From NCBI GenBank assembly GCA_002503885.1, contig DASQ01000041.1, forward strand, positions 1 through 18,513: DNA of 18,513 nucleotides, in the 5' to 3' direction. Numbering within the stretch: position 1 is the stretch's first letter; each line of letters opens with the position of its first letter. Source of the stretch: Methanoculleus marisnigri. Its GTDB lineage: Archaea > Halobacteriota > Methanomicrobia > Methanomicrobiales > Methanoculleaceae. Shown piece after piece: positions 1 through 13,298 of the stretch. A program made the translations under genes and the position numbers. Under the pieces are notes generated by a model. That model saw only the letters and a list, made by a program, of their open reading frames with translations. It was not told where the DNA came from and did no database searches.

Positions 1-128
1 TTTTGAAAAGGGTGTTCTTTTTGGTTTTCCTTCGGGCCATACTGGGATTCTATTTGTCCATTCATATAATTGTACTTTACTGTTTAATGATATAATTAAG
101 TGGTACTTTTGAAAGGGGTTCGCAAAGT

Positions 129-267
129 GAAATTACCGATCGGATTTCGCAGTATGTTGATACGTTGAATCAGACACCAGTAGTATTCAAGTGGTCATAC
201 ACAATGGATGCAAATCCCTCCGGGGTGGAAATGGGGTAGTCAGGTTAATTTAGAATCGATGCACTAG
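129..267 (+). mobile_element. 3'-terminal ~140-bp fragment of an IS630/Tc1-mariner-family IS (truncated copy); carries a transposase C-terminal pseudogene fragment (129-239) and the terminal inverted repeat
   Basis: Seen directly: 132-267 is the reverse complement of 11191-11326. It encodes the last 36 codons of the transposase (EITDRISQYVDTLNQTPVVFKWSYTMDANPSGVEMG*, stop 237-239). It then runs 28 bp to the terminal inverted repeat ...tagaatcgatgcac followed by TA (265-266). The identity stops abruptly upstream of about 129. Positions 1-128 are unrelated AT-rich sequence. Confidence 0.85.
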
Positions 268-277
268 TTACCCGAAC

Positions 278-1465
278 TCACCCATCACCATGTTTTGCAT
301 TCCATTCCACGTATCGCTCAAGATCTTCCACCTTTAACGGGGATCGTATCTTGCCAAATGCGGCTGCAAAGTCATTTTCACAGAGAGGTCGCGTTATCAG
401 CGCGCGCTCTTTGAGTTCATCAAACGGCAGATCCGCGAGCCGGTGAATTTCAGGATTGACATCGTTGATCATCGTCCAGATCGCCTGTTGATAGACATTC
501 TGGATGTCACGTCCCGAGTACAGGCGGTCGACGCATTGCCGTCCGAGTTCGACGAGGTCAACTCCGGATACTTCAAGCCCTCGCATGTGAATCTCGATAA
601 TTGCCCTGCAGGCATCGATATCCGGGAGCGGCACATAGATTCGCCGCGGGAACCTCGACAATATTGCCGAATCGAGATCCCAGGGTGCATTTGTTGCCGC
701 CATCGTGAGGAGCAGACGGTCGTCTTTTTTGCCCTGCAGGCCGTCAAGCTCGATGAGGAGAGAGGAGAGCACTCTCCGGGTCGCTTCGCTCATCGTGTCG
801 CTCCGCGATGCACCAAGGGCATCAAACTCATCGATAAAGACGATCGAAGGGGCCTGTTCTCGCGCCGCGGCATACAGGGAAGAGATCATCTTCGAAGACT
901 CGCCAAAGTATTTCGAGAGCAATCGGTCGGTTTTTACGTTGAAAAATGTTGCATCCAGGCTCCCTGCCGCAGCAGCTGCAATCATTGTTTTCCCCGTACC
1001 CGGCGGACCTAAAAGGAGAATACCCTTCCACGGACGGATAGATTCCGGTCTTTTCAGGGCTGCGATAGCAACGGTCTCCTTCACGAGGCGCTTGACCTCG
1101 TCAAGCCCGCCGATATCCTCCCATCGAACCGATGAGCGCGCGATCAGCGACGACATCTCAGTATCGCCTGCAAGCTCTTTAACAGAACGATTCGAATGCC
1201 CAGGTGCGCCCGATGTCTTGCTTTGTCTTCTCTGTGCAACCAACGCTGAACGGGATGCAATACCCTTCCATCTCTCTGCCTCGGCGGTATACCTTTGCTG
1301 CATCATGGGCGAAGAGACTGCAATCTGCCGACAGAGTGTTGCACACGCCCGCGCCCTCTCGTTAGCAGTCGCGTTGTCCGCTTCAGCTACTGCCTTTCTA
1401 TAGCCAGTAATAGTTTTCCGCAGTTCCGCAAGCAAAAATCCGCTAACGTCCACGTGCACAGTCAT
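278..1465 (-). CDS. AAA+ ATPase of the Vps4/katanin/spastin (meiotic) clade with a MIT-like N-terminal helical domain
   Basis: Walker A GPPGTGKT, Walker B IVFIDEFDAL and second region of homology are all present. The C-terminal segment (…YVEWNAKHG) resembles the Vps4-type C-terminal helix. About 100 N-terminal residues form three predicted helices before the ATPase core. The true start is probably ATG at 1463-1465, since the listed GTG at 1466-1468 is in frame. That start overlaps the stop of the upstream gene as tgATG. Confidence 0.85.
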   Translation of the reverse strand: MTVHVDVSGFLLAELRKTITGYRKAVAEADNATANERARACATLCRQIAVSSPMMQQRYTAEAERWKGIASRSALVAQRRQSKTSGAPGHSNRSVKELAGDTEMSSLIARSSVRWEDIGGLDEVKRLVKETVAIAALKRPESIRPWKGILLLGPPGTGKTMIAAAAAGSLDATFFNVKTDRLLSKYFGESSKMISSLYAAAREQAPSIVFIDEFDALGASRSDTMSEATRRVLSSLLIELDGLQGKKDDRLLLTMAATNAPWDLDSAILSRFPRRIYVPLPDIDACRAIIEIHMRGLEVSGVDLVELGRQCVDRLYSGRDIQNVYQQAIWTMINDVNPEIHRLADLPFDELKERALITRPLCENDFAAAFGKIRSPLKVEDLERYVEWNAKHGDG

Positions 1466-4161
1466 CACCTCATCGCTTCTCGAAGGATGTTCTCCTTGAG
1501 TAATTCGACATCATCGGCAAGAGATTCAATCTCATTGTCGAGGTCCTCGTCGATGTAAAAACGCAGGTGCTCACTTACTTGTTGCAGTTTTTCGAGGATA
1601 TCTCCACGGACGAACACTTCGAGGTGAATTGCAGATTTACGTGCTTCCAGACGATCACGTTGCCGCAGATGTTCCACAAGGTTTTGTGCAACGAAATATG
1701 CCGTCCGGTAGTCCGGTTCGGGCGACCCAGGATCCGCTAGAACTACGATTTCCTCCGGGGTATCCGGTTTGGGCGGCACCGGGTCCGGAGACGCTACGAT
1801 TTTCTTCAGGACATCACCTGCAATCCCGCCGATAGAGCGCTCTATCCACCGGTGTTCGCTATGGTTGAAGACGTGAACTCTGGTGCGGTCATCCAGGTTG
1901 TTTCTAATCGCTTCTTTCACACCGGCCTGGATCAGCATGGGAGCGCATCCTGCGTCCGCCCACAGCCCTGCTGCCCAGATTGCCGCACCCCTGACCCGGT
2001 TGCTCCTTGAACCAATACACGTGAGGAGGACTTTTTCAAGATCTTTCTGCTGTAAAAACGACTTATCGCGTACCTTTGAAAGTTCACCGATGATCGATAC
2101 CGCCGCTTTTCGGATCTCCAGGTCCTTCTCCTGTGCACATCGTTTCAGATCCGTGACGAGAGTTTCGGCATCGCATAGCGAATCCGCGTACCCCCTGCAT
2201 GAGATTGACCAGAGCGCCCATAAAACACGAAACCGAACTTCATCATTTTGTACGTTCAAAAGGTGGGCAAGTGCAGTAGCACCGCCATTTCGCACCACCG
2301 GTTCGGGGCTTGCATAAAAAGCGATCTTGTCGAGGGCGAGGGCAGCGCATGCCTGGACTTCGTGGTTTTTGCTATAGAGAAGACGGATATAGCGCAGAGT
2401 CGCGCCGGAATCTGCGACCGCAATGCCCTGACCCGCTTCGGCAACCACTGCCAGAGACCATGCCGCGGCGCTGCACACCGGGTCTGCCGGGTCGTCAAGA
2501 TGTGCGGCCATTTCAGGAAGGATCCCTGATCCGGCAACCTCATACGAATAACCCTGGTAAGCAAGGTTTCCGAGAACCCAGAGGATGTTTCTTCGAACAT
2601 CGGGGACGGAATCGTCGAGCGCTCTGCCGAGCATATCAAACGCTCTTTCTCGAATGATCGCTCCGGCTTTTCCTCCTTTGGCCAGGATGTCGAGTTGGTA
2701 CGATGCATGAATCCGATCCTGGCTATCTTCCGACCCGAGCCGTATAAGCAGCCGTTTAACATCCGAATTGCCATCGTTGCCAGATTCTCTGCGAAGTTCT
2801 CGATCGAGCATCGCGGTACATTGAGCGATTTTACTCCTCACCTCTTCCCGAAGTTTTGTCGAAGAACTGTGGATATGGTCGAATGCATTTTGATACGATC
2901 TCAAGGCGTCGCGGTACGCAGCCCTCTCATAGAGGATGTCACCTCTGAGAATGTAGGGAAAGAGAAAGCCAGGACGGGTGCGTATCGATTCCTCAGCCAG
3001 CCTAAGTGCTTCATCGGTTTGATTACGAGCGTGGAGGCACATCCCTTTCCCGTTCAATGCCCACGGGTGTCTCTTGATCCGCATTGCCCTGTCGTAGTAG
3101 GCAATTGCCTCTGAATACTGCTTCTGCTCGCGGTAGATATCGGCAATGCCGATGTACGGGAACGGATATGATCGCGCTCTGTCAAGAGAGATTGCCCGCT
3201 CGTAGCACTCTATAGCCTCCTTTTGCCGACCAAGCCTTCTGAGTGCATTTCCCTTTTCATTCCACGCCCAGTGGGAGCCGGGTTCAAGTTCCAGAGCCGT
3301 GGTAAAGTGCTTTAGCGCATCTTCAAAGCGCTGAACTTTGTAAAACTCCTTTCCCTTGTTCAGATTAGCCATGTACTTTGCATGATTGTCTGTCGAATTT
3401 GATTCCGGATGAGAATAGCCTCCGTTCTTCTCATCCAGTATGCTTGTGGCCGCAGGTGCATCATGTAGTTTTTTTCGAATGCTGGGGATGTGGTCGCTGA
3501 ACGCTCTGATGAGAGCATTCAAAGGCTTTTCTTGATTACCCGGCTCCACGCGAACATCTCGATCGAGCATCGCAGTACACTGAGTGATTTTGCTCTTCAC
3601 TTCTCCCCGAAGTTCAGGCGAGGGGCCGCGGATCAGTTCGTATGCCCTTTGATATGATCTCAAGGCGTCGCGGTACGCAGCCCTCTCATAGAGGATGTCA
3701 CCTCTGAGAATGTAGGGAAAGAGAAATTCAGGGCGAATATGTATCGACTCTTCAGCCAGTCTGAGCGCTTCATCGGTTTGATTAAGAGCGTGGAGGCATC
3801 TTCCTTTCCCGTTCAATGCCCATGGGTGTCTCTTGATCCGTATTGCTCTGTCATAATAAGCAATTGCCTCTGAGTACTGCTTCTGATCGCGGTAGATGTC
3901 GGCGACGCCGATGTATGGAAACGGATACGAGTGCCTTTTGTCTAGGTGAATTGCCCGCTCGTAACAATCCCTCGCTTCCCTTTGCCTTCCAAGTCTCCTG
4001 AGTGCATTGCCCTTTTCATTCCACGCCCAATGAGAGTCTGGTTCGAGTTCCAGGGCTGTGTTAAAGTACTTGAGCGCATCCTCAAAACGCTGAACTTTGT
4101 AAAGTTCCTGCCCCTTGCTCAGATTAAACATGTACTTTGCATGGTTGTCTGTCTGATTCAT
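1465..4161 (-). CDS. Large TPR-repeat + HEAT/PBS-lyase-like repeat protein (898 aa) with an internal tandem duplication of a ~245-aa TPR module
   Basis: The N-terminal half contains two ~85%-identical copies of a TPR block (NHAKYM.NL.KG.E.YKVQRFEDALK.F.TALELEP.SHWAWNEKGNALRRLGRQ…). The C-terminal ~400 aa has repeated HEAT-like units (AAWSLAVVAEAG, VRFRVLWALWSI, VRGAAIWAAGLWADAG). There are ATGA overlaps with both neighbouring genes. Confidence 0.85.
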   Translation of the reverse strand: MNQTDNHAKYMFNLSKGQELYKVQRFEDALKYFNTALELEPDSHWAWNEKGNALRRLGRQREARDCYERAIHLDKRHSYPFPYIGVADIYRDQKQYSEAIAYYDRAIRIKRHPWALNGKGRCLHALNQTDEALRLAEESIHIRPEFLFPYILRGDILYERAAYRDALRSYQRAYELIRGPSPELRGEVKSKITQCTAMLDRDVRVEPGNQEKPLNALIRAFSDHIPSIRKKLHDAPAATSILDEKNGGYSHPESNSTDNHAKYMANLNKGKEFYKVQRFEDALKHFTTALELEPGSHWAWNEKGNALRRLGRQKEAIECYERAISLDRARSYPFPYIGIADIYREQKQYSEAIAYYDRAMRIKRHPWALNGKGMCLHARNQTDEALRLAEESIRTRPGFLFPYILRGDILYERAAYRDALRSYQNAFDHIHSSSTKLREEVRSKIAQCTAMLDRELRRESGNDGNSDVKRLLIRLGSEDSQDRIHASYQLDILAKGGKAGAIIRERAFDMLGRALDDSVPDVRRNILWVLGNLAYQGYSYEVAGSGILPEMAAHLDDPADPVCSAAAWSLAVVAEAGQGIAVADSGATLRYIRLLYSKNHEVQACAALALDKIAFYASPEPVVRNGGATALAHLLNVQNDEVRFRVLWALWSISCRGYADSLCDAETLVTDLKRCAQEKDLEIRKAAVSIIGELSKVRDKSFLQQKDLEKVLLTCIGSRSNRVRGAAIWAAGLWADAGCAPMLIQAGVKEAIRNNLDDRTRVHVFNHSEHRWIERSIGGIAGDVLKKIVASPDPVPPKPDTPEEIVVLADPGSPEPDYRTAYFVAQNLVEHLRQRDRLEARKSAIHLEVFVRGDILEKLQQVSEHLRFYIDEDLDNEIESLADDVELLKENILREAMR
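2670..4150. repeat. Intragenic tandem duplication (~750-bp unit x2) inside the TPR/HEAT gene
   Basis: Near-identical DNA stretches are visible, e.g. 2895-2990 versus 3650-3745 (…gatctcaaggcgtcgcggtacgcagccctctcatagaggatgtcacctctgagaatgtagggaaagagaaa…). The protein repeats correspond to about aa 6-245 and 258-495. Confidence 0.8.
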
Positions 4162-4679
4162 TTTCCACTTCCTAGAAAGACCTGGAGTTCCTCATCTATC
4201 CGGCCGGCCACAAGCGAGACCACATCACCAAACCCGCTGACCGTTACGTTGAGATGCGTTGCCCCTGCATCCCCGGACCAGAGAAGCCCGACGGTCGCCT
4301 GTCCCTTTCGGGTATAGGCAGTATACGATTCGACTCCGTTGCGGACCCCCTCATAACTTGAATTGAGTTTATTCAGGACATATCTTAAAAATTGTTTTAA
4401 TGCGTCCTTATCCAGAGATGTCTCATAATACAGAGTCTTTGTCGCTTCGCGAATATCGGGCACGGATTCCTCTGCAGAATATATTCTGACATCTTCACTT
4501 CCCCGTTCCAGCCGTGCGTAGAGGTCCTGCAGGAAGTCTTCAATCACCTCGTCTCTCACCAGAATGGCGACGCCCCTCTCTTTGTGTACATCTTTTTTCG
4601 ACTTCCATCTGTCAATCGTGGCGTCAATCCGCTTACGCTCGGCATCTGAGTGGTAGTCGACAACGAGGAGGTATTCCAT
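4158..4679 (-). CDS. Hypothetical protein (~173 aa), first gene of the minus-strand operon
   Basis: The ORF has no recognisable motifs. Its likely start is ATG at 4677-4679 (MEYLLVVDYHSD…), since the track's GTG at 4703 lies inside the TATA box. Its stop overlaps the start of the TPR/HEAT gene as ATGA. Confidence 0.6.
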   Translation of the reverse strand: MEYLLVVDYHSDAERKRIDATIDRWKSKKDVHKERGVAILVRDEVIEDFLQDLYARLERGSEDVRIYSAEESVPDIREATKTLYYETSLDKDALKQFLRYVLNKLNSSYEGVRNGVESYTAYTRKGQATVGLLWSGDAGATHLNVTVSGFGDVVSLVAGRIDEELQVFLGSGK

Positions 4680-4702
4680 TTGATAACCATATGCGGGTAC
4701 CA

Positions 4703-4713
4703 CTATATATATT
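4703..4713 (-). promoter_or_regulatory. Archaeal TATA box (ctatatatatt) for the minus-strand operon
   Basis: A strong A/T alternating octamer lies about 25-35 bp upstream of the ATG at 4679. That geometry fits a leaderless or short-leader archaeal promoter. Confidence 0.5.
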
Positions 4714-4742
4714 CCTCCGCAGTGGAGTTATTGATTTTGGAG

Positions 4743-4752
4743 TATATTAATA
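4743..4752 (+). promoter_or_regulatory. TATA-like element (tatattaata) for the plus-strand operon
   Basis: An AT-rich box lies about 60 bp upstream of the ATG at 4814 in the divergent intergenic region. Confidence 0.4.
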
Positions 4753-4753
4753 T

Positions 4754-4768
4754 CCTCCATATTGGAGG
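4754..4768. promoter_or_regulatory. Inverted repeat CCTCCA-tat-TGGAGG; a related CCTCC-gcagt-GGAG lies at 4714-4727
   Basis: Two similar palindromes lie between the two divergent TATA boxes. Either could be an operator site. Confidence 0.35.
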
Positions 4769-4813
4769 AAAGTTTATCATGTATGGAGGGCAATGGTCAA
4801 TCGGTGAAGTGTG

Positions 4814-5416
4814 ATGAAGATCGCAAGCCTGTTTCATCGGAACCGGATAGAGATGTTGACGATCACCGAACTGCAGGAGGAAGAGATCATATTAAAGAGC
4901 AGGATCAACCGCCTCCGGAAGGAGATCGACAGAATCGAGCGCGAGAAAAAACTGAAATTTGCAGAAGGCGTCGGCGGCGACCTTATCAAGAAGAAGATGC
5001 TTGCTCAGGAACTCAAGCAACTGGATATGACTGCAAAGCTCAAGGTTCGAAACTTCCTTGCCCTGCATAAACAGTACATGTTTATCTCGAACCTGGTTAT
5101 CATCAAAAAGTATCAGCGGGATCTCCAGAAGACACACATCTGGGAGAAGATCCAGACGATCTCTCCGGAAACTATCGAGAGTGCCCTCATCCGCGTGAAT
5201 CTCTCCGGAAAGAATTTTGAAACTGTCGTCGACGACTTAAATCAGGTGTTTGCCCTTGATCTTTCGGACTCGGATCAGGACCTCGACGAAGCTGAAAAGC
5301 AGATGTTTGAAGTCTGGAGCAGTGTCGAGACCGGTTCGCTAGGGCTTGATGAAGCGAAAGATCTCTTTTCGATTGAGAAAGATATCGAGAAGGCGATCCG
5401 CGAATCCGAAGGGTAA
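4814..5416 (+). CDS. ESCRT-III/Snf7/PspA-like coiled-coil protein (candidate)
   Basis: About 200 aa: a basic and coiled-coil N-terminal two-thirds (…RINRLRKEIDRIEREKKLKF…KKKMLAQELKQL…) and an acidic C-terminal tail (DLDEAEKQMFEVW…LDEAKDLFSIEKDIEKAIRESEG). Size, charge distribution and proximity to a Vps4-like ATPase all fit an ESCRT-III-like protein. The family assignment is by eye only. Confidence 0.5.
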   Translation: MKIASLFHRNRIEMLTITELQEEEIILKSRINRLRKEIDRIEREKKLKFAEGVGGDLIKKKMLAQELKQLDMTAKLKVRNFLALHKQYMFISNLVIIKKYQRDLQKTHIWEKIQTISPETIESALIRVNLSGKNFETVVDDLNQVFALDLSDSDQDLDEAEKQMFEVWSSVETGSLGLDEAKDLFSIEKDIEKAIRESEG

Positions 5417-5446
5417 CCCCTCAGATCGTGATGGGTGGTCACTACC

Positions 5447-6097
5447 ATGAAGATTCTATCCCGTAGGCATCCGAAAGACCCGTTCGCCTCGTCCAGCATC
5501 AGCGATCTACGCAAGGCCGAAGCGCTGCTGAAGTGCCGGATCGGCACCCTCGAATCCGAATCTCAGGACCTCAAAGAAAAGATACAGAACCTGCTCGACG
5601 ATGGTGCCTCGATATGCGACGAGCCGCGCGATGCCCATCGTGCAATGCGGATCCGGACACTCATAGAACAATACCACATGAAGAATGCAGTTTGCGTGAA
5701 ACTTGAGCGCGATCTCCGCCTGATCTCGTATATCATCGCTATGAGAGATCGTGACAGGATGCTGAACCTGTCGGACGCCTGCCAGAAACTCAACAGGATC
5801 TCTCCTGACAAGCTCGAAGAATGGCTGGCAAAGCAATCCGTACATGAGGAAGGCGACAGAAACCGTGTCGAAGACCTTCAAGCCATTCTCTCCGAACAGA
5901 TTCCGGGCGGCAAAGACCATCCTGTCGATGAAACCTCGATACGGCAGGCAATGGAAGAGATTCGTGGCGGAGCAGTTCCAGTTGCCGTAATCGTAAAAAA
6001 TCTCCTGGATGGGTCTCTATCGGGAAAGGAGAGAATCAGAACGACTATAACACAGTATGATAAATTTCCCGGTAAGCAGGGAAGGGATGAGCAATGA
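5447..6097 (+). CDS. Second ESCRT-III/Snf7-like coiled-coil paralogue (candidate)
   Basis: About 215 aa, starting MKILSRRHP… (compare MKIASLFHR… in the upstream gene). It is coiled-coil with an acidic C-terminal region. Its stop overlaps the next gene's ATG (ATGA at 6094-6097). Confidence 0.45.
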   Translation: MKILSRRHPKDPFASSSISDLRKAEALLKCRIGTLESESQDLKEKIQNLLDDGASICDEPRDAHRAMRIRTLIEQYHMKNAVCVKLERDLRLISYIIAMRDRDRMLNLSDACQKLNRISPDKLEEWLAKQSVHEEGDRNRVEDLQAILSEQIPGGKDHPVDETSIRQAMEEIRGGAVPVAVIVKNLLDGSLSGKERIRTTITQYDKFPGKQGRDEQ

Positions 6098-7989
6098 CCA
6101 ATGGGGATATTACCTGTCCTAAATGTAAAATCCAGCTTGGGGCCGCTGCAAAGTTTTGCCCGCAGTGCGGAACGAAGGTCGGTGCGTATACCTGCGGCAG
6201 CTGCGGGGTTACCGTGCCTCCCGATGCAAAATTCTGCCCCGGTTGCGGGAAAGGATTTGAAAAAACTCTCTTCGGAAGGATCGTAGGAGCTAACGAAGAG
6301 GACTTTTCGCGGAGGCGCGAATGGAGACGAACCCCTGAAGATTTTGCGAGTAAATTTGAGGTTGAAGATCTCCGGGGCGTCCTGAAAAAGACCGTTACCG
6401 TTGCCGAGGGAACCCGCGCGCTTCTTTTCCAGGGAGGAGCATATGCGGGCGACCTGCCGGCAGGTCACTACACCCTTGGAAATATTCTCGAAGCCAAACT
6501 GCCCCTGAACCTCGACGAACGCGCGACGGTCGTGCTCATCGACGATGGCGTGGTTGCAATCGATTTCACCATCGGGCGCTCGGAACTGCGCACCGCCGAC
6601 TCCGTCCCCGTCGGGATTGCCGGAAGATTTACGATCAGAAACAGGGATTCGAAATCGTTCATCGCAAATCTCCTCAAAGGGAAGGGCCGAATCCTCCTTG
6701 CGGATCTCCAGGAAGATCTCCGATACGATCTCCTTGGTGTCGTTCAGTCCACGCTGAGCGGATACCGGATGGACGATCTCTATGGGAACCTCGCCGTAAA
6801 GGAAGACATCGAGAGTGCCGTCAGGGCAAACGTCACCCCTACCCTTTCGAGTTACGGCTTTTCCCTCGAACAACTCAGGTTCACGCAATCCGATGAGGCA
6901 GAGTGGCACGATATCCTTGAACAGCGCAGCGAAGGGACGAAAAAGGTCACGAAGACCGGACTTCAGATCGATATCGAACAAAAACTGCGGCACCTTCTCT
7001 CCGACGATAAACTCGACCAGCTGGCTACCGACGAGAAAATCAGCGAATACTGTCACGAGCTGGCTCAGGCCGGCATCGTTCGCGAGAACGAGATCGAAGA
7101 CCTGAAGATCGCCCTTCGAAACCGGCGCGACGATAAGGCCTTCATCCGCCAGATTATCCGGGAGCGGTTTGAGCAGGCTCATCGTCACGAGTCTGCCGAA
7201 GCGGAGCAGGACAATCTCCTTGGCCTGGACGCAAAAGCGCAGCGGCACGGACGTACCATGGATGCCGAGCAGACAGGGCACGAGATCGGCACCGATGATG
7301 CCCGGCGTGAACACCTGAACAAGTGGAGAGGGCGGGAGCGACAGCAGGATCATGCCGAGATAGAGGATCTCATCGGCCTGAAAAAGCAGATGGACGATGC
7401 AAAGCTCCAGAGAGTGCGTGGAGAACAGGAGCTAGCCCACGAAGACCTCGAGAAGCAAACCGAGATTGAGGGGAAGAAACTCGAACAGCGTATCAATGCC
7501 TCACCCGAGGCGCTTATCTCGATGACGGACGGCGGTACCGCTGAAAAGCTTACGGAACTCGAAAAGATGAAGCGCGCAGCAGCCCTCACCGAAGGACAGA
7601 TCATGGCGCTTTCGGCAGAAAAGAGTACCGCCGTTGCAGAGGCGATGAAAGAGAAGTTCGGATCCGACAGGATGCAGGAGCTCTTCGAAACCCGCCTGCA
7701 GGACCAGCAGAAATACATGGAAACGATCCAGGCAATGGCCGGAGGTAACGCGGATCGCCTGGCCGACGTCATGAACAAGGCGCTCGATGCCATGGGTCAG
7801 ACGGCGACCGCACGGAGCTCCGCCCACCAGGCACAGGGCTCGACGGTCGTTGCCGGCGGCGGAGGGCTCGGCCAGCCGGTGATCATCAACCCTGCCCGGC
7901 AGGAAGAGAGCCGGATATGCCCCGGATGCAAAACGCCAAACAGTACCGCCGATCGGTTTTGCAAGGAGTGCGGCGAGGAACTCAGGTGA
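6094..7989 (+). CDS. Zinc-ribbon / SPFH (Band_7_1, COG4260-like) / long coiled-coil / zinc-ribbon protein (flotillin-like architecture)
   Basis: The N-terminal double zinc ribbon has three CxxC-type pairs (CPKC…CPQC…CGSC…CPGC). Residues ~95-250 match the Band_7_1 SPFH signature (…AEGTRALLFQGGAYAGDLPAGHYTL…VPVGIAGRFTIRNRDSKSFIANLL…). A ~250-aa E/K/R/Q-rich coiled coil follows. The C-terminal zinc ribbon is CPGCKTPNSTADRFCKECG. Confidence 0.75.
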   Translation: MTNGDITCPKCKIQLGAAAKFCPQCGTKVGAYTCGSCGVTVPPDAKFCPGCGKGFEKTLFGRIVGANEEDFSRRREWRRTPEDFASKFEVEDLRGVLKKTVTVAEGTRALLFQGGAYAGDLPAGHYTLGNILEAKLPLNLDERATVVLIDDGVVAIDFTIGRSELRTADSVPVGIAGRFTIRNRDSKSFIANLLKGKGRILLADLQEDLRYDLLGVVQSTLSGYRMDDLYGNLAVKEDIESAVRANVTPTLSSYGFSLEQLRFTQSDEAEWHDILEQRSEGTKKVTKTGLQIDIEQKLRHLLSDDKLDQLATDEKISEYCHELAQAGIVRENEIEDLKIALRNRRDDKAFIRQIIRERFEQAHRHESAEAEQDNLLGLDAKAQRHGRTMDAEQTGHEIGTDDARREHLNKWRGRERQQDHAEIEDLIGLKKQMDDAKLQRVRGEQELAHEDLEKQTEIEGKKLEQRINASPEALISMTDGGTAEKLTELEKMKRAAALTEGQIMALSAEKSTAVAEAMKEKFGSDRMQELFETRLQDQQKYMETIQAMAGGNADRLADVMNKALDAMGQTATARSSAHQAQGSTVVAGGGGLGQPVIINPARQEESRICPGCKTPNSTADRFCKECGEELR

Positions 7990-8003
7990 GCCGTGGAAGG
8001 CTG

Positions 8004-8030
8004 TGCCGGATGTGCCACGTGCATCCGGCA
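8004..8030. other. Hairpin (9-bp stem tgccggatg/catccggca, 9-nt loop containing cacgtg) 15 bp after the stop of the SPFH gene
   Basis: The inverted repeat was read directly. It may be a transcript 3'-end structure or a protein-binding palindrome. Confidence 0.3.
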
Positions 8031-8081
8031 ACTCGCCCTTCACCTTTAGTCACCATCACAAAAACTCAATTCTGATGCCGT

Positions 8082-8966
8082 ATGTCTGGAGATCAAGATT
8101 TTACCTGTGCAAAGAACCTCGTTGCCCCGGCCGAGACAGTCCTGAAGAGTGGATCGGCGATCGTCAGGCAGTCTTACGATGAGCGGGTGAGACTCTGGTG
8201 TGCGATCCGGGAAAACTACTCCCGGTATGAGAACCGGGAATGTGGTTCCTTTGACAGTACGTTTCACCAGGTGTTCTGCTCCAAGTTCGAGGCGGCGCTG
8301 CTGACCCTCGCCGTGAGTTTCCGTCGGAGTGGCGAGAACTACGCGGATGCCGAAGGGATGTACTCCGCGGACGAGCTCGCACTCTACGAGATCATCGAGC
8401 GGTACCAGGTTCTTCCGTCCAAGAGCGAACTCATTGTCAGGCTGAGCGCGCCGGACGGGGGCGGTTCGGAGTTCCTTCAGGTGCACTACCAGCATATCGA
8501 CAGCCTCATTAACGAGATCTGCAACCGTCCGCACGCCACGAATCCGTTCCTCATCCACTACCTGAAGCATGAGTGGGAGAAGTACGATCGGAGACTGCAC
8601 GAGGTCGTGGTAGACCTCGTGCAGAAGAACGGCCTGCGATGGTTCTTCACCTACATCAATCAGGGGAGTGCCAGGGCAGAACAGATCGTCTACAATATCT
8701 CTGGCGGGTCGGTGAATCTCGGGAACGGCGTGCAGGTCATCGACAGTATCATGAACCGGGCCGGTATCGGCAACCAGTCGGAGGGGCAGTTCAGGCCTTC
8801 GAGCGGGGGTATTCAGGTTTATGATAGTGTCGTGAACCGGTCGGCCGTCGGGGGAGGGGACGACGAGGAGCAGAGGTTCTGTGCCGAATGCGGTAACCCC
8901 TTAAGCGACGGAGCGAGATTTTGTACCCGGTGCGGGCAGCAGGTAAAATGCCCACATACTTCGTGA
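8082..8966 (+). CDS. Hypothetical protein with a C-terminal zinc ribbon (CAECGNPLSDGARFCTRCG) and an internal short repeat
   Basis: 294-aa ORF with a Cys4 ribbon at the C-terminus. Two similar ~19-aa segments are VQVIDSIMNRAGIGNQSEG and IQVYDSVVNRSAVGGGDDE. Confidence 0.65.
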   Translation: MSGDQDFTCAKNLVAPAETVLKSGSAIVRQSYDERVRLWCAIRENYSRYENRECGSFDSTFHQVFCSKFEAALLTLAVSFRRSGENYADAEGMYSADELALYEIIERYQVLPSKSELIVRLSAPDGGGSEFLQVHYQHIDSLINEICNRPHATNPFLIHYLKHEWEKYDRRLHEVVVDLVQKNGLRWFFTYINQGSARAEQIVYNISGGSVNLGNGVQVIDSIMNRAGIGNQSEGQFRPSSGGIQVYDSVVNRSAVGGGDDEEQRFCAECGNPLSDGARFCTRCGQQVKCPHTS

Positions 8967-9012
8967 GATGCGCGAGTGCTTTGGCCGGATTGGAGATTTC
9001 GTGAGGGAGTGA

Positions 9013-11193
9013 ATGGCAATCTTTGGATGGATAAGGGATAAGAAGGAAACAGCTCCCGGGTGGGTTGAGAAGGGGAATCAGGCAGCAACGCCGGAAGAAC
9101 AGTGTCGTTGCTACGACAGGGCGCTCGAGATCGACATGAACTGTGCGGCTGCCTGGAACAATAAAGGCAATGCGCTTCATCTCCTCAACCAGTACGAGGA
9201 GGCGATACAGTGTTACGAAAAGGTAATCGAGATCGACCCGAACAACGCGGGTGCCTGGAACAATAAAGGCTACGCGCTTCATTCCCTCAACCGGTACGAC
9301 GAGGCGATCCTGTGTTACGACAGGGCACTTGAGATCGACCCGAAAAATGCTGCTGTATGGGGGGATAAAGGCCTCGCGCTCCATTCCCTCCGCCGCTCCG
9401 ACGAGGCGATCCGATGTTACGATAGGACGCTTCAGCTTGACCCGACAGATGCTGTTGCATGGGAGAAAATAGGCCTCGCACTCCTGAACCTCGGCCGGTA
9501 CGACAAGGCGATCCGGTGCTGCGACAGGGCACTTGAGATCGACCCGAAAAATGCAGTTGTATGGCGCAACAAAGGCTTCGCACTCCAGAAGAGCCCCGGT
9601 GGGGACAATAAGGCGATCCGATGTTACGATAGGGCACTTGAGATCGACCCAAAATGTGCTGCGGTATGGGGGAATAAAGGCTCCGTGCTCCTGGGCCTCC
9701 GCCGCTTCGATGAGGCGATCCTGTGTTGCGATAGGGCACTTGAGATCGACCCGACAGATGCTGTTGCATGGAGCAATAAAGGCCGCGCACTCCTGATCCT
9801 CAGCCGGTACGACGAGGCGATCCGGTGCTACGACAGGGCACTTGAGATCGACCCGTACGATGATGATGCATGGTACTATAAAGGCTGCGCACTCCATAAC
9901 CTCGACCGGTACGAGGAGGCGATCCGGTGCTACGACAAACCACTTGAGATCTACCCGAAATTTGCTATTGCATGGATAAATAAAGGCGACGCCCTCCATC
10001 ACCTCGGCCGGTACGACGAGGCGATCCGATGTTGCGACAGGGCACTTGAGCTCGACCCGACAGATGCAACCGCACAAAATATGCGAGACCGTATATTGGT
10101 TGAGAGCGCTAAAAGTGCTCGAAAAAACCGGTCGACGCCCCCTTGTTCGGGCGAGGCCGGGCAGTCACTGCAGCCCTCCGCACATCCCGGAGAGCCGGCG
10201 GGGACTCGACAATCCATCACCATTGAGCGCACCGTCTATGACCCCCTCACCACGGACTTCATCGTCTCCTCCCCCCGCCCCCTTGTCAACGTCAGGAACT
10301 GGATCGACCAGCACGACCCCGCCTCCTACTGGCTGGTCATCTGTGTGCACAACTACGGCGGTGCCGCCATCGACGAGTGGGGGATCGAACTGGACTCTTC
10401 GTCGTCCCTCCGGGTCCTCGACACCGCTATCGAGGGAATCGACGGGCAGATGCACCTCATGACCAGCAACCCAAAACCCTGGCAGGTAAGGTCGATCCTC
10501 GGGATCACCCGCCACCAGGGGATCGCGATCCCACGAGACGGTTCCCGCAGGGTGTACTTCAAGTTGGGCTCGGAGTCGTGCGGTATATCGCATACCATCC
10601 AGGGGAAGTTCATTATCAGCAGCGTCGAGGTTCCGATCCGCGAGAAGACCTTCACCCACTCGTGCGACGTCGCGACCCTGCGCGTCGCACTCTCAAGAAA
10701 CCCCGCCGCCGCCGGGCAGTATGCAGAGAATATCATCCGGCGTTCATACGACCGGGACACTGCCCTGAAACTTCTTCGTTCGTTCAAACTGGTGCAGGAG
10801 ATCGACCAGTGCTGCACATCGCAGAAGTACAACGAGATCCTCGACCGAATGCAGCTCCTGGCGGGAACGCTGGAGAGTATTCAGGCTGGGGACAAAGTGA
10901 CTCATCTGGTACGGCAGGGCTGCGTTGCACTGGAGATACTCGGGGATAGTGAAGCCTCGGTGGAGAAAGCACGGCGGCTCTGCAGCAACATCGTCGATAC
11001 TTGGGTGAATGAGTTTATAGGCATCGAGGACCATGCTTCCAAGTCTATGTCGCATGAAAGAGGGGGAGATGCAGGGAAATGCCCTCTGTGCGGTTCCCGT
11101 CTTGTATGGAGGAGAGCTCAAAAGAATAATGAGCTATATCGAGGGTGCACGAACTTCGATGGCGGTTGCCGGTGGAACGATCGTAGTTACTAG
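9013..11193 (+). CDS. TPR-repeat protein (10 x 34-aa TPR) with an unknown ~330-aa C-terminal domain and a terminal topoisomerase-type C4 zinc finger
   Basis: The repeats follow (A/V)W-NKG-AL--L-RYDEAI-CYDRALEIDP. The C-terminus CPLCGSRLVWRRAQKNNELYRGCTNFDGGCRW matches the zf-C4_Topoisom pattern CPxCG…GC…C. AGGGAG lies 5-8 nt upstream of the ATG. The stop codon TAG (11191-11193) is formed at the IS insertion junction. Confidence 0.8.
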   Translation: MAIFGWIRDKKETAPGWVEKGNQAATPEEQCRCYDRALEIDMNCAAAWNNKGNALHLLNQYEEAIQCYEKVIEIDPNNAGAWNNKGYALHSLNRYDEAILCYDRALEIDPKNAAVWGDKGLALHSLRRSDEAIRCYDRTLQLDPTDAVAWEKIGLALLNLGRYDKAIRCCDRALEIDPKNAVVWRNKGFALQKSPGGDNKAIRCYDRALEIDPKCAAVWGNKGSVLLGLRRFDEAILCCDRALEIDPTDAVAWSNKGRALLILSRYDEAIRCYDRALEIDPYDDDAWYYKGCALHNLDRYEEAIRCYDKPLEIYPKFAIAWINKGDALHHLGRYDEAIRCCDRALELDPTDATAQNMRDRILVESAKSARKNRSTPPCSGEAGQSLQPSAHPGEPAGTRQSITIERTVYDPLTTDFIVSSPRPLVNVRNWIDQHDPASYWLVICVHNYGGAAIDEWGIELDSSSSLRVLDTAIEGIDGQMHLMTSNPKPWQVRSILGITRHQGIAIPRDGSRRVYFKLGSESCGISHTIQGKFIISSVEVPIREKTFTHSCDVATLRVALSRNPAAAGQYAENIIRRSYDRDTALKLLRSFKLVQEIDQCCTSQKYNEILDRMQLLAGTLESIQAGDKVTHLVRQGCVALEILGDSEASVEKARRLCSNIVDTWVNEFIGIEDHASKSMSHERGGDAGKCPLCGSRLVWRRAQKNNELYRGCTNFDGGCRWNDRSY
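9100..10060. repeat. Tandem 102-bp coding repeats (TPR units) with very high DNA-level identity
   Basis: The string …tgttacgacagggcacttgagatcgacccgaaaaatgc… recurs at about 9313, 9523, 9628, 9727, 9829 and 10024. These repeats generate the spurious minus-strand ORFs 8791-10077 and 9287-9790. Confidence 0.85.
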
Positions 11194-12429
11194 TGCATCG
11201 ATTCTAAATTAACCTGACTACCCCATTTCCACCCCGGAGGGATTTGCATCCATTGTGTATGACCACTTGAATACTACTGGTGTCTGATTCAACGTATCAA
11301 CATACTGCGAAATCCGATCGGTAATCTCTTCCTTTGATTTCGCTCGAATGCCTCGCAGTACCGTCCGAGTGGTTTTACTGAAGAATGCTTCAATAATATT
11401 GAGCCAGGACGCGTGTTTCGGGGTAAAAATGAATTCGAATCGATTCGGAACCGTTTTGAGGTACTTCCGGGTTGCAACCGAGGAGTGAACCTTGAGGTTG
11501 TCCAGGATGATTTTCAATTTCATCGTGTCCGGATACTGGGTATCGAGCATTTTCAGGAACGCGATGAATTCCTCGCTCCGATTGCGTTCGGTAATCCGGT
11601 AATGAACAAATCCGGTCACCAGATCCATCGCTGCCTGCAAACAGATGGTACCGTTGCGAACATACTCATAATCCCGGCGAATGGAGGAGAATTGCCCGGG
11701 CACCGGCATCAGATCGGGGTACTTCGTATCGAGTACCTGGATGCCGCTCTTTTCATCAAACGAGAGAATAAATGTATCCGGCTCTTTGCCTTCTTTTTCC
11801 AGAATCTTGAACCTATTCGCTTCCTGGTAGGTGTGGAGAACGACGGCTGCCGTCTCGTGAAACGCTGGATCCCGTTTCTGGACATATGACCGGATTTTAT
11901 GAGGTTTTATGGCACTCGCATTGGCAATTTTTGAGATCGTCCCTTGCGAAATCCGGGCAACTTCCGGAAATCCTTCTTCCATGGCGTGTTCTCGAATATA
12001 CTGCTGCAAGAGCCGCTGCGTCCAGAGTTCATGAGGATAGCCGAAATCAGAAGGTTTCTGGCATAGCAAGCTCACGATCCATGTCCTGGCTTCGGGAGAG
12101 ATGGTTTTCGGCCGACCACTCCGGGGGAGATCGTTCAACCCCTCCCGGATACCGACAGCGAGGACGCGCTGGATGGTTCGGATCACTCTCTGACGAGAGA
12201 GCCCTAATTCACGCGCGATAGCAGAATCGGATTTGCCTTGATGGCTGAGGAGGACCATCTTCGCACGCTCGTACGTGCCCTTTTGGGTCGTGCGAGAATG
12301 AAGTAATTTCTCCAAATAGTCAAGTTCCTCATCAGATAAGAGTACGGGCTCACGGACAGAGACAAAGGGCATACTCCAAGTGGGGCGTCATGCTATTTAT
12401 TACGTTGTTTATTTGGAATCTATGCACTA
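11191..12429 (-). mobile_element. Complete IS630/Tc1-mariner-family insertion sequence with 20-bp imperfect terminal inverted repeats and a TA target-site duplication
   Basis: The terminal inverted repeats are ctagtgcatcgattctaaat (11190-11209) and the reverse complement of atttggaatctatgcactag (12411-12430); 18 of 20 positions match. TA flanks both ends (11191-92 and 12428-29). There is a single transposase ORF. Confidence 0.85.
11218..12372 (-). CDS. IS630-family DDE transposase (HTH + DDE_3, DD37E-type spacing)
   Basis: An N-terminal helix-turn-helix region (…SAIARELGLSRQRV…) is followed by catalytic D in SFDEKSG, D in ILDNLKVH and E in WLNIIEAFF, 37 residues after the second D. This layout is typical of the Tc1/IS630 superfamily. 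Confidence 0.85.
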   Translation of the reverse strand: MPFVSVREPVLLSDEELDYLEKLLHSRTTQKGTYERAKMVLLSHQGKSDSAIARELGLSRQRVIRTIQRVLAVGIREGLNDLPRSGRPKTISPEARTWIVSLLCQKPSDFGYPHELWTQRLLQQYIREHAMEEGFPEVARISQGTISKIANASAIKPHKIRSYVQKRDPAFHETAAVVLHTYQEANRFKILEKEGKEPDTFILSFDEKSGIQVLDTKYPDLMPVPGQFSSIRRDYEYVRNGTICLQAAMDLVTGFVHYRITERNRSEEFIAFLKMLDTQYPDTMKLKIILDNLKVHSSVATRKYLKTVPNRFEFIFTPKHASWLNIIEAFFSKTTRTVLRGIRAKSKEEITDRISQYVDTLNQTPVVFKWSYTMDANPSGVEMG

Positions 12430-12438
12430 GAGATGTCA

Positions 12439-12980: not shown

Positions 12981-12998
12981 TGCCCACACGTAGCCACA
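12981..12998. other. Perfect 18-bp palindrome gtagccacatgtggctac
   Basis: Read directly; the sequence is self-complementary. Confidence 0.9.
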
Positions 12999-13223: not shown

Positions 13224-13298
13224 CGGGCCTGGGGGGATTCGAACCCCCGACGTCCGGGTTAGAAGCCCGGCGCTATGTCCTGGCTAAGCCACAGACCC
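13224..13298 (-). tRNA. tRNA-Arg (anticodon TCT), CCA not encoded
   Basis: The cloverleaf was folded by hand. Acceptor stem is gggtctg/caggccc; anticodon stem is ccggg/cccgg with loop cttcTCTaa; T arm is ggggg-ttcgaat-ccccc. The 5-nt variable loop and 75-nt length fit. Confidence 0.8.

What the first reader, a model, noticed from the sequence alone, without database searches (positions are those of the whole stretch)
278..11193. IS-bracketed island encoding a candidate ESCRT-III / Vps4 / SPFH membrane-remodelling module
Inside about 11 kb, two divergent and tightly coupled operons encode five kinds of product. (1) A meiotic-clade AAA ATPase with a MIT-like N-terminus, i.e. Vps4/CdvC-like. (2) Two paralogous ~200-aa coiled-coil proteins with the charge layout of ESCRT-III/Snf7/PspA. 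(3) A Band_7_1 SPFH protein with zinc ribbons and a flotillin-like coiled coil. (4) A further zinc-ribbon protein. (5) Two large TPR scaffolds. 

The combination recalls two known systems. One is the archaeal Cdv/ESCRT machinery, where Vps4 binds ESCRT-III tails through its MIT domain. The other is the Bacillus subtilis pspA-ydjGHI operon: PspA belongs to the ESCRT-III superfamily, YdjI is a Band_7_1 SPFH protein, and YdjG is a zinc-ribbon protein. Neither system is usually drawn with this TPR/HEAT and topo-zinc-finger decoration. A mobile, IS-flanked version in a methanogen-like genome would be unusual. It could be a cell-envelope repair, vesiculation or division-accessory module, or virus- or plasmid-derived budding machinery.
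Basis: partly seen in the sequence, partly recalled or inferred. Interest (0 to 1): 0.85.

Follow-up and report, generated by a model that had tools for sequence, protein, structure and literature searches.

The report
Known euryarchaeal ESCRT cluster on IS-flanked island

Summary
Window 278-11193 holds two divergent, tightly packed operons in a Methanoculleus marisnigri contig. The ESCRT-III/Vps4/SPFH reading is essentially right, but the system is not new. Exact-sequence look-ups tie orthologues (50-57% identical ATPase) to accessions listed by Makarova et al. 2024 (mBio, PMC10936438). Those entries are Vps4 (arCOG01307), two 'Snf7 family' proteins (arCOG09747/09749), arCOG08177, arCOG09748 and an SPFH 'ESCRT system component' (arCOG15283).

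My own tests support the ATPase well. Its N-terminus models as a three-helix bundle that superposes on MIT domains, including archaeal CdvC. Vps4_C matches 18 of 20 orthologues.

The ESCRT-III assignment of the two coiled-coil proteins is only weakly supported here: no Pfam hit, CdvB as best natural PDB match at E=0.009, and non-specific fold searches.

'IS-bracketed' is partly true. There is an intact IS630 on the right and a 143-nt inverted remnant on the left. The island has low GC3 and is absent from near-identical strains beside tRNA-Arg.

A conserved CTCC-N5-GGAG palindrome abuts both promoters.

Verdict: new member of a known kind; modest interest.

The parts
129..271 (+). 143-nt remnant of the IS630 element: the last ~110 nt of the transposase gene plus the terminal inverted repeat. 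It is inverted relative to the intact copy and ends 6 nt from the ATPase stop codon.
   Evidence: Inverted repeat I1, 99% complementary to 11186-11328. Sequence read. The 128/129 junction is reproduced at 100% in three assemblies.
278..1465 (-). Vps4-like AAA+ ATPase, 395 aa (WP_303714669.1). It has a MIT-like three-helix N-terminus (residues ~7-83), a disordered linker, one AAA cassette and a C-terminal Vps4_C-type helix.
1465..4161 (-). 898-aa scaffold protein: two tandem TPR modules (a recent internal duplication) followed by ARM/HEAT repeats. Lineage-specific accessory.
   Evidence: Pfam TPR_1 2e-55, Arm 3.6e-16, HEAT. Direct repeat D2, 86% identical, 759 nt apart. Orthologues at 46-84% identity only in L010-L014 and L016.
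4158..4679 (-). 173-aa conserved protein (WP_303714672.1), orthologue of arCOG08177 ('ESCRT system protein, inactivated Cas2 + TBP/DUF3568 domains' in the literature).
   Evidence: 40% identical (E=7e-50) to L034:5183-5716, which clusters with WP_048177849.1 = arCOG08177. Present in 19 loci. No Pfam or PDB sequence hit.
4704..4780 (.). Divergent promoter region. Two copies of the palindrome CTCC-N5-GGAG (4715-4727 and 4755-4767, 40 nt apart) each abut an outward-facing TATA-like box.
   Evidence: Sequence. Conserved in the same position in 15 of 18 aligned loci. The strict 15-nt form has 0.19 matches expected in the window.
4814..5416 (+). CC1, a 200-aa ESCRT-III-like protein, positional orthologue of arCOG09747 'Snf7 family protein'. 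Basic N-half, acidic C-half. Extremely conserved.
   Evidence: 78% mean column identity across genera. AF2 model: hairpin 17-52/57-99, short helices, disordered acidic linker 149-159, C-terminal helices. Net charge about +10 then -14. 52% identical to the Methanosarcina gene at the arCOG09747 position. Profile versus PDB: CdvB E=0.009.
5447..6097 (+). CC2, a 216-aa divergent paralogue of CC1 (WP_303714674.1), orthologue of arCOG09749 'Snf7 family protein'.
   Evidence: 27% identical (E=3e-15) to L034:6791-7390, which is exactly WP_048177847.1. Paralogy with CC1.
6094..7989 (+). 631-aa protein (WP_303714675.1): N-terminal double zinc ribbon, SPFH/Band 7 domain, long charged coiled coil, C-terminal zinc ribbon. 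Orthologue of arCOG15283.
   Evidence: Pfam DZR 2.6e-14, Band_7 32 bits (cut-off 23.6), Zn_ribbon_3. [quoted passage not shown] No TM segment.
8082..8966 (+). 294-aa protein (WP_303714676.1): the N-terminal helical domain of arCOG09748, a low-complexity linker and a C-terminal zinc ribbon. The coiled-coil, globular and winged-helix parts of longer arCOG09748 members are absent.
   Evidence: 43% identical to WP_255333480.1 (arCOG09748). 36% identical (E=3e-34) to the first 195 aa of the 648-aa Methanosarcina member. Pfam Zn_Ribbon_1.
9013..11193 (+). 726-aa protein: ten TPRs, a ~300-aa domain of unknown fold and a C-terminal 4-Cys topoisomerase-type zinc finger. Lineage-specific accessory. Its stop codon lies in the IS630 terminus.
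   Evidence: Pfam TPR_1 6e-96. Zn_ribbon_Top1 24.2 bits, sub-threshold. Orthologues at 38-46% identity in L012-L014. Junction sequence.
11188..12430 (-). Intact IS630-family insertion sequence with ~23-bp terminal inverted repeats and a 384-aa transposase (11218-12372).
   Evidence: NCBIfam transpos_IS630 213.7 bits against a cut-off of 100. Pfam DDE_3 and HTH. Ends read.
13224..13298 (-). tRNA-Arg(TCT). Similarity to near-identical strains that lack the island stops at, or 35 nt beyond, its 3' end.
   Evidence: ARAGORN and Rfam. Breakpoints from blastn. tRNA present in L035 and L037-L041.

Best explanation
The region is a Methanoculleus orthologue of the euryarchaeal 'Main'-clade ESCRT system described by comparative genomics in 2024.

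Shown by homology:
- a Vps4-type AAA+ ATPase with an N-terminal MIT-like bundle
- two ESCRT-III-superfamily paralogues (CC1 highly conserved, CC2 fast-evolving)
- the arCOG08177 and arCOG09748 companion proteins
- a soluble SPFH protein flanked by zinc ribbons
- lineage-specific TPR/ARM scaffolds

Inferred mechanism:
1. None of the products has a transmembrane segment, so all act from the cytoplasmic face.
2. The SPFH/coiled-coil protein and the zinc-ribbon proteins assemble on, or mark, a membrane patch.
3. CC1 and CC2 co-polymerise there through their basic helical hairpins.
4. The ATPase hexamer docks on their acidic C-terminal tails through its MIT bundle. It then extracts subunits, which remodels the polymer to drive membrane scission, vesicle formation or repair.
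5. The TPR/ARM proteins serve as adaptors.

Regulation: both operons start from one divergent intergenic region. Each TATA box there is preceded by the same CTCC-N5-GGAG palindrome, so they are probably switched together by one dimeric regulator.

Genomic setting: in this genome the cluster sits in a low-GC3 segment hugged by inverted IS630 ends and missing from near-identical strains. It was therefore most likely acquired horizontally.
For: Co-conservation:
- The ATPase is adjacent to CC1 in all ~25 loci that extend far enough, across Methanomicrobiales, Methanoregula, Methanosarcina, Archaeoglobi and Thermoplasmatales MAGs.

Literature link by exact sequence:
- WP_255333475.1, WP_095642221.1 and WP_048177845.1 = Vps4
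- WP_048177847.1 = Snf7 family, arCOG09749
- WP_048177849.1 = arCOG08177
- WP_255333480.1 and WP_048177850.1 = arCOG09748
- WP_095642223.1 = SPFH, arCOG15283
- Sources. Pairwise similarity to the window proteins.

ATPase:
- Vps4_C in 18/20 orthologues.
- Full-length single-domain alignment to katanin p60 (193.7 bits, through the C-terminus) and to Vps4B (184.5 bits).
- Conserved ATN-x-PW-x-LD and C-terminal Y-E-x-W-x-x-E-x-G motifs. That these are typical of the meiotic clade is my own knowledge.
- N-terminal three-helix model with pLDDT ~90.

CC1/CC2:
- ESCRT-III-like helix order and charge asymmetry.
- CdvB is the best natural PDB sequence hit, E=0.009.
- 2 of 90 distant relatives hit Pfam Snf7.
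- About 13 of the top 50 Foldseek hits are ESCRT-III structures.

Other points:
- No TM segments.
- Promoter palindrome.
- Island: IS ends, GC3 0.54-0.74 against 0.84-0.88, strain variability at tRNA-Arg, plasmid-borne homologous system in Thermococcus peptonophilus.
Against: - No Pfam or NCBIfam family matches CC1 or CC2 themselves.
- No Pfam MIT hit and no PDB sequence hit for the ATPase N-terminus.
- The window ATPase's own Vps4_C score is below Pfam's cut-off.
- NCBIfam scores for PAN, CDC48 and CdvC are nearly equal (181, 177 and 174 bits, all far below their cut-offs). I built no tree.
- No experiment on any euryarchaeal member was found, so every functional step is inference.
- The published Cas2/TBP and winged-helix assignments for the two companion proteins could not be reproduced by sequence. 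The window's arCOG09748 homologue lacks the region that carries the winged helix.
Confidence: 0.8

Rival explanations
1. A PspA/Vipp1-type envelope-stress repair module, analogous to B. subtilis PspA-YdjGHI. The coiled-coil proteins would form protective carpets at damaged membrane, recruited by the SPFH protein. The ATPase would only recycle them, with no scission or vesicle role.
For: - SPFH plus a zinc-ribbon protein plus ESCRT-III-superfamily proteins recall pspA-ydjGHI (paper PMC8581546, found).
- UniRef names the Methanocalculus CC2 orthologue 'PspA/IM30 family protein'.
- CC2-type N-termini such as MGIFSKLFG resemble the PspA start (my own knowledge).
Against: - No PspA_IM30 Pfam hit in the window proteins or among the 90 relatives, whereas Snf7 is the only related family hit.
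- hhalign to E. coli PspA gave 0.7% probability, against 10% for CHMP4B.
- There is an obligatory Vps4-like/MIT partner, which Psp systems lack.
- No YdjH-like membrane protein is encoded.
- Band_7_1 is below its cut-off.
Confidence: 0.12
2. An antiviral or conflict system. It would be a variable-island cassette in which an AAA+ ATPase with TPR sensors and (in relatives) Ser/Thr kinase/phosphatase signalling triggers a membrane-directed response on infection.
For: - The cluster lies in an IS-flanked, low-GC3, strain-variable region beside a tRNA gene.
- PADLOC IetA models match the ATPase at 2.4e-33.
- Kinase/PP2C genes adjoin the cluster in Methanoplanus, Methanosarcina and the Thermococcus plasmid.
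- Distribution is patchy.
Against: - The IetA/IteA match covers only the generic AAA core, and IteA scores 109.5 bits against a cut-off of 510.
- No IetS-like protease or other effector (nuclease, toxin, TM pore) is present.
- No relatives were found in viral contigs or phage records.
- CC1 is under very strong purifying selection across genera, which is atypical for fast-evolving defence genes.
Confidence: 0.05
3. A soluble protein-unfolding or quality-control machine (CDC48/PAN-like ATPase with TPR/ARM adaptors), or a chromosome-associated coiled-coil system as NCBI's name 'chromosome assembly protein' implies. Either way it would be unrelated to membranes.
For: - The highest summed PDB scores are to VAT/CDC48/p97.
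- The NCBIfam PAN and CDC48 models score slightly above CdvC.
- nr names CC1 'chromosome assembly protein'.
- No TM segment anywhere in the island.
Against: - The CDC48 scores sum two domains. As a single domain, katanin and Vps4B align over the whole length including the C-terminal helix.
- Vps4_C in 18/20 orthologues.
- The N-terminus is MIT-like, not a CDC48_N or PAN coiled coil/OB.
- SPFH is a membrane-microdomain family.
- No SMC/kleisin-type domains were detected.
Confidence: 0.03

Closest known systems
'Main'-clade euryarchaeal ESCRT system (Makarova et al. 2024, mBio 15:e00335-24; arCOG01307 + arCOG09747/09749 + arCOG08177 + arCOG09748, with or without Ser/Thr kinase/phosphatase)
   Same: Same five core gene families and the same local gene order as Methanosarcina sp. 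MTP4, Methanocalculus taiwanensis and Methanoplanus. Orthologues were mapped to the paper's accessions by exact sequence. A TPR gene also sits inside the published MTP4 locus (arCOG03032).
   Different: - No kinase or phosphatase in the window.
- The arCOG09748 homologue is short and ends in a zinc ribbon instead of the coiled-coil/globular/winged-helix part.
- Two very large TPR/ARM scaffolds.
- An SPFH gene inside the operon.
- IS630-flanked, low-GC3 setting.
- The paper does not list this genome, and my term searches of its main text found no mention of promoters or of a transposon or plasmid context for these systems.
'Meth_adaptin' ESCRT loci and arCOG15283 SPFH 'ESCRT system component' (same paper; Methanosalsum, Methanocorpusculum)
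   Same: [quoted passage not shown] The Methanocorpusculum parvum member WP_095642223.1 aligns over its full length with the window protein.
   Different: No adaptin-appendage, GOLD or ProX genes here. Only a weak sub-threshold Adaptin_N match in the ARM/HEAT region (E=0.007).
Cdv system of Sulfolobales/Thaumarchaeota (CdvA, CdvB, CdvC)
   Different: No CdvA and no winged helix on the ESCRT-III-like proteins. These methanogen lineages are generally FtsZ-dividing archaea (my own knowledge), so a primary role in division is unlikely.
Bacillus subtilis pspA-ydjGHI
   Same: An ESCRT-III-superfamily protein is encoded with an SPFH protein and a zinc-ribbon protein.
   Different: - No PspA_IM30 match.
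- Band_7_1 is below threshold.
- No YdjH-type membrane protein.
- A Vps4-like ATPase is present, which the Psp system lacks.
Composite transposons bounded by inverted IS copies (Tn5/Tn10 geometry), IS630 family
   Same: The same IS end faces the cluster on both sides in inverted orientation. It lies 6 nt from the ATPase stop on the left, and on the right the IS terminus supplies the stop codon of the last gene.
   Different: The left copy is only 143 nt, so the structure cannot move as it stands. No target-site duplication flanking the whole unit can be seen, because the contig ends 128 nt further left.

Membership tests
Vps4/CdvC (meiotic-clade AAA+ ATPase of ESCRT systems) | Single AAA+ cassette with intact Walker A, Walker B, sensor-1 and arginine fingers | tested here: met
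   Pfam AAA 5e-36. GPPGTGKT, IVFIDEFD, ATN and SRFPRR are invariant or nearly so in 20 orthologues.
Vps4/CdvC (meiotic-clade AAA+ ATPase of ESCRT systems) | N-terminal MIT three-helix bundle | tested here: met
Vps4/CdvC (meiotic-clade AAA+ ATPase of ESCRT systems) | C-terminal helix (Pfam Vps4_C) | tested here: met
   The window protein scores 18.6 bits, below the cut-off of 21.3. However, 18 of 20 orthologues match at E<0.01, best 4.1e-10. PF09336 is precomputed on most of the 120 homologues.
Vps4/CdvC (meiotic-clade AAA+ ATPase of ESCRT systems) | Phylogenetic placement inside the Vps4 clade, outside CDC48/PAN | not tested
   No tree was built here. Orthologues at 50-57% identity are members of the published Vps4 tree. 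NCBIfam scores do not discriminate.
ESCRT-III / Snf7 / PspA superfamily (CC1, CC2) | Match to a curated family profile (Pfam Snf7 PF03357 or PspA_IM30 PF04012) | tested here: not met
   No hit for either window protein. Only 2 of 90 distant relatives reach Snf7, best E=3.4e-4.
ESCRT-III / Snf7 / PspA superfamily (CC1, CC2) | Fold: long alpha1-alpha2 hairpin, shorter alpha3-alpha5, flexible acidic linker, C-terminal helix | tested here: inconclusive
ESCRT-III / Snf7 / PspA superfamily (CC1, CC2) | Basic N-terminal half and acidic C-terminal half | tested here: met
   CC1 net charge in 25-residue blocks: -2, +6, +1, +5, -1, -2, -7, -4. CC2 shows it only weakly.
ESCRT-III / Snf7 / PspA superfamily (CC1, CC2) | C-terminal MIT-interacting motif that binds the ATPase; polymerisation on membranes | not testable with these tools
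   A conserved amphipathic C-terminal helix exists (S186, K189, E192 and K193 invariant). Binding or co-folding could not be run.
SPFH / Band 7 | SPFH domain above the curated threshold | tested here: met
   Band_7 at 32.0 bits against a cut-off of 23.6, residues 102-267.
Band_7_1 (YdjI type) and the PspA-YdjGHI system | Band_7_1 profile match; PspA_IM30 partner; YdjH-type membrane anchor | tested here: not met
   Band_7_1 at 20.1 bits against a cut-off of 24. No PspA_IM30 hit. No hydrophobic segment in any island protein.
Cdv cell-division system | CdvA (PRC barrel + CdvA domain) and a winged helix on CdvB | tested here: not met
   No such Pfam families on any of the eight proteins.
'Main'-clade euryarchaeal ESCRT system (Makarova 2024) | Vps4 + ESCRT-III plus arCOG09748 and arCOG08177 in one neighbourhood | tested here: met
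   Orthology to accessions in the paper's Tables S1/S2. The window's arCOG09748 homologue covers only the N-terminal ~195 residues of the long form.
IS630 family insertion sequence / composite transposon | IS630 transposase, terminal inverted repeats, and two complete flanking copies | tested here: inconclusive
   The right copy is complete (213.7 bits against 100; TIR about 20/23 identical). The left copy is a 143-nt remnant. An IS630 element is present, but it is not a functional composite transposon.

The most novel reading that the evidence does not exclude
This would be a portable ESCRT cassette: a self-contained Vps4/ESCRT-III/SPFH membrane-remodelling module that moves between euryarchaea on plasmids and IS-bounded islands. 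It would carry its own conserved operator (CTCC-N5-GGAG next to each TATA box), read by a regulator encoded in the cassette, for example the arCOG08177 or arCOG09748 protein. [quoted passage not shown] It would also suggest an accessory, condition-specific role such as vesicle-mediated export or DNA transfer.
Probability: 0.15. Interest if true: 0.6.

Novelty: new member of a known kind. Interest (0 to 1): 0.3.

Why it matters
Euryarchaeal ESCRT systems are known only from comparative genomics, and I found no experimental study of any of them. This locus adds another clear member of the 'Main' type in a cultivable methanogen genus.

It also adds three practical handles:
- CC1 is unusually conserved, at 65-79% identity across genera, which is more than the ATPase (53-62%).
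- A conserved palindrome beside both promoters could be used to find the regulator and the inducing condition.
- There is evidence that the cassette can sit on mobile DNA: an IS-flanked low-GC3 island here and a 49-kb plasmid in Thermococcus peptonophilus.

None of this changes the picture of what the system is.

Tried and rejected
1. Pfam, NCBIfam and PADLOC scans of CC1, CC2 and the 173-aa protein gave no family.
2. A profile of the ATPase N-terminus against PDB sequences gave no MIT hit. Using that profile in the big protein search returned only six fragments.
The CHMP4B alignment was collinear (family 127-187 to CHMP4B 122-175), but this is not evidence.
5. A profile of arCOG08177 orthologues against Pfam and PDB gave no Cas2, DUF3568 or TBP signal.
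6. Iet/IteA defence assignment: rejected. Only the AAA core matches, the score is far below the cut-off, and there is no partner protease.
7. Virus origin: rejected. No relatives in IMG/VR contigs or phage records.
8. 'Ancient fixed chromosomal locus in Methanoculleus': rejected, because near-identical strains lack it.
9. L013's ATPase copy has four in-frame stops and was dropped from alignments.

Full report
**What is there.** The window is a contig of Methanoculleus marisnigri or a very close relative. The proteins are exact matches to WP_303714669/672/674/675/676, and nr names that organism. Between 278 and 11193 lie eight genes in two divergent operons.

Minus strand:
- AAA ATPase, 278-1465
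- TPR+ARM/HEAT protein of 898 aa, 1465-4161
- a 173-aa protein, 4158-4679

Plus strand:
- CC1, 4814-5416
- CC2, 5447-6097
- double-zinc-ribbon/SPFH/coiled-coil/zinc-ribbon protein, 6094-7989
- a 294-aa protein ending in a zinc ribbon, 8082-8966
- a 726-aa TPR protein ending in a topoisomerase-type 4-Cys finger, 9013-11193

Several neighbours overlap by 1-4 nt. Pfam confirms AAA, Band_7, zinc ribbons, TPR and ARM/HEAT, but gives nothing for CC1, CC2 or the 173-aa protein. No product has a transmembrane-grade hydrophobic segment.

**Co-conservation.** A scan of one genome per species with a CC1 alignment gave 24 loci, and contig look-ups gave more.
- A tblastn synteny table shows the ATPase beside CC1 in every locus long enough to tell.
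- The 173-aa protein, the 294-aa-type protein and the SPFH protein are frequent. CC2 is detectable in many loci.
- The taxa are Methanomicrobiales, Methanoregula, Methanosarcina, Archaeoglobi and Thermoplasmatales MAGs.
- The TPR genes vary. The 898-aa and 726-aa forms are confined to the Methanoculleus/Methanogenium/Methanocalculus group. Methanocorpusculum and Methanosarcina have small TPR proteins instead.
- Flanking genes differ between genera, and none of the other loci has the IS.

**Already described.** Makarova et al. 2024 (PMC10936438) define a 'Main' clade of euryarchaeal ESCRT systems in Thermococcales, Methanococcales, Methanomicrobiales and Halobacteriales. It comprises Vps4 (arCOG01307), ESCRT-III ('Snf7 family', arCOG09747/09749), arCOG09748 (C-terminal winged helix) and arCOG08177 (inactivated Cas2 plus TBP-fold domain), often with a Ser/Thr kinase and phosphatase. 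[quoted passage not shown]

Exact-sequence look-ups tie my loci to the paper's accessions:
- Methanocalculus taiwanensis ATPase = WP_255333475.1, 57% identical to the window's.
- M. taiwanensis 305-aa zinc-ribbon protein = WP_255333480.1 (arCOG09748).
- Methanocorpusculum parvum ATPase = WP_095642221.1.
- M. parvum SPFH = WP_095642223.1.
- Methanosarcina sp. MTP4 ATPase = WP_048177845.1, 50% identical to the window's.
- Its CC2-position gene = WP_048177847.1 (arCOG09749).
- Its neighbours cluster with WP_048177849.1 (arCOG08177) and WP_048177850.1 (arCOG09748).

Table S2 gives the MTP4 order as Vps4, TPR, arCOG09749, arCOG09747, arCOG08177, arCOG09748. This is the core order seen here.

Pairwise comparisons with the Methanosarcina genes:

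| Window protein | Identity | E-value |
|---|---|---|
| CC1 | 52% | 5e-75 |
| CC2 | 27% | 3e-15 |
| 173-aa protein | 40% | 7e-50 |
| 294-aa protein, first ~195 residues | 36% | 3e-34 |

The window's arCOG09748 homologue is a short form. It lacks the part that carries the winged helix.

**Independent tests of the ATPase.**
- Sequence scores alone do not separate PAN, CDC48 and CdvC.
- As a single domain the protein aligns end-to-end with katanin p60 and Vps4B, including the C-terminal helix.
- Vps4_C is matched by 18 of 20 orthologues.
- The alignment shows ATN-x-PW-x-LD and a C-terminal Y-E-x-W-N-x-E-x-G motif. From my own knowledge these are typical of the meiotic clade.
- The N-terminus has no sequence match to MIT.
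- An AlphaFold model built with 40 orthologues gives three helices at pLDDT ~90.

I regard 'Vps4-like with a MIT-like N-terminus' as supported. I did not build a tree.

**Independent tests of CC1/CC2.** These are weaker.
- The CC1 model (pLDDT 75) has a 36+43-residue hairpin, three short helices, a disordered acidic linker and C-terminal helices.
- CC1's N-half is basic and its C-half acidic.
- A 90-sequence family profile finds S. islandicus CdvB as the best natural PDB sequence at E=0.009.
- Two distant relatives hit Pfam Snf7.
- CC1 and CC2 are paralogues.
- CC1 is strikingly conserved: 78% mean column identity, and 65-79% between genera against 53-62% for the ATPase.

**Setting.**
- An intact IS630 element (about 11188-12430) abuts the last gene, and its terminal CTAG supplies that gene's stop codon.
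- A 143-nt, 99% identical inverted copy of the same IS end lies 6 nt from the ATPase stop. It is real in three assemblies.
- Island genes have GC3 of 0.54-0.74, against 0.84-0.88 for the neighbouring housekeeping genes.
- Contigs from near-identical strains (98-99.8% on the right flank) lack both the IS and the island. Similarity stops at, or 35 nt beyond, the 3' end of tRNA-Arg(TCT).
- A homologous Main-type system sits on a 49-kb plasmid of Thermococcus peptonophilus.
- No relatives were found in viral collections.

Horizontal acquisition in this lineage is likely. IS630-mediated composite transposition is possible but unproven.

**A regulatory motif.** The 134-nt divergent intergenic region holds two copies of CTCC-N5-GGAG, 40 nt apart. 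Each lies immediately upstream of an outward-facing TATA-like box.
- The same arrangement, with the same 40-41-nt spacing, recurs in the close relatives whose two copies both match the exact pattern (L010-L014).
- The CC1-proximal copy, with consensus CTCCATTTTGGAGAAA-N-TTTATA, is kept in 15 of 18 aligned loci, including Archaeoglobi and a Thermoplasmatales MAG.
- It is degenerate in Methanoregula and on the Thermococcus plasmid.
- My term search of the 2024 paper's main text found no mention of promoters.

The motif suggests one dimeric regulator for both operons.

**Verdict.** However, the object is a new member of a published kind, and function remains inferred. Interest is modest. It rests on the mobile context, the operator motif and the lack of any experimental work on these systems.

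Noticed in passing
window 4715-4727 and 4755-4767 (also L007-L025, L030, L031, L034 intergenic regions): Two copies of the palindrome CTCC-N5-GGAG, 40 nt apart, each directly upstream of an outward-facing TATA-like box in the divergent promoter region. The CC1-side copy is conserved in 15 of 18 loci from Methanomicrobiales to Archaeoglobi. It is probably an operator for a dedicated regulator. I found no mention of promoters in the 2024 ESCRT paper's main text.
   Followed up: partly
It is the orthologue of arCOG08177, described in the literature as inactivated Cas2 plus a TBP-fold domain. No sequence-level support for those folds could be obtained here.
   Followed up: partly
window 13224-13298 and 12431-13223: tRNA-Arg(TCT). 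Contigs of near-identical strains diverge from the window exactly at, or 35 nt past, its 3' end and carry at least three different gene contents there. This region is a variability hotspot. The 790 nt between the tRNA and the IS have no convincing ORF.
   Followed up: partly
window 11186-11193: The stop codon (TAG, 11191-11193) of the 726-aa TPR/zinc-finger gene lies inside the terminal CTAG of the IS630 element. The insertion may therefore have clipped the gene's original 3' end.
   Followed up: no
window 2791-3090 and 3550-3849: A recent tandem duplication (86% nucleotide identity, 759-nt period) of a ~253-aa TPR module inside the 898-aa scaffold gene. Most orthologues match only residues 255-898, which suggests they have one module.
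   Followed up: partly
window 12761-12868 versus 15050-15226: Two adjacent inverted-repeat pairs (46 nt at 87% and 60 nt at 78%) contain a GC-rich palindrome, CCCCCGCCCC-N4-GGGGCGGGGG. They bracket the tRNA-Arg/DUF473/PAC2/DUF5611 block. Nature unknown (MITE-like repeat or terminators).
   Followed up: no
L013:524-1723 and L014:4214-5413: One Methanomicrobiaceae MAG (MFD02416.bin.2.146) carries two full copies of the cluster on different contigs. The ATPase of one copy has four in-frame stop codons (pseudogene or assembly error).
   Followed up: no
L043 (Thermococcus peptonophilus OG-1 plasmid NZ_CP014751.1, 13862-32455): A complete Main-type ESCRT operon lies on a 49-kb plasmid among heavy-metal ATPase genes. 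Its order is a 172-aa protein at the arCOG08177 position, arCOG09748, two Snf7-like genes, a Ser/Thr kinase, a Vps4-like ATPase and PP2C. Only the arCOG09748 and arCOG09749 members were matched to the paper's tables.
   Followed up: partly
window 4814-5416 versus 278-1465, across L007-L033: The ESCRT-III-like CC1 is more conserved between genera (65-79% identity) than the AAA ATPase of the same loci (53-62%). Its paralogue CC2 is far more divergent (25-39%).
   Followed up: partly
window 1-128: An AT-rich (34% GC) stretch lies left of the IS remnant, with an internal near-repeat (TTTTGAAAAGGGTGTTC / CTTTTGAAAGGGGTTC). Three ENA metagenome contigs that carry the cluster (L001-L003) all start 6-8 nt further left, which suggests another repeat begins there.
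   Followed up: no
window 1465-2841 (-), ARM/HEAT half of the 898-aa protein: A weak sub-threshold match to Adaptin_N (E=0.007, 15.4 bits against a cut-off of 37). It is of note only because adaptin-like parts are reported in other archaeal ESCRT loci.
   Followed up: no
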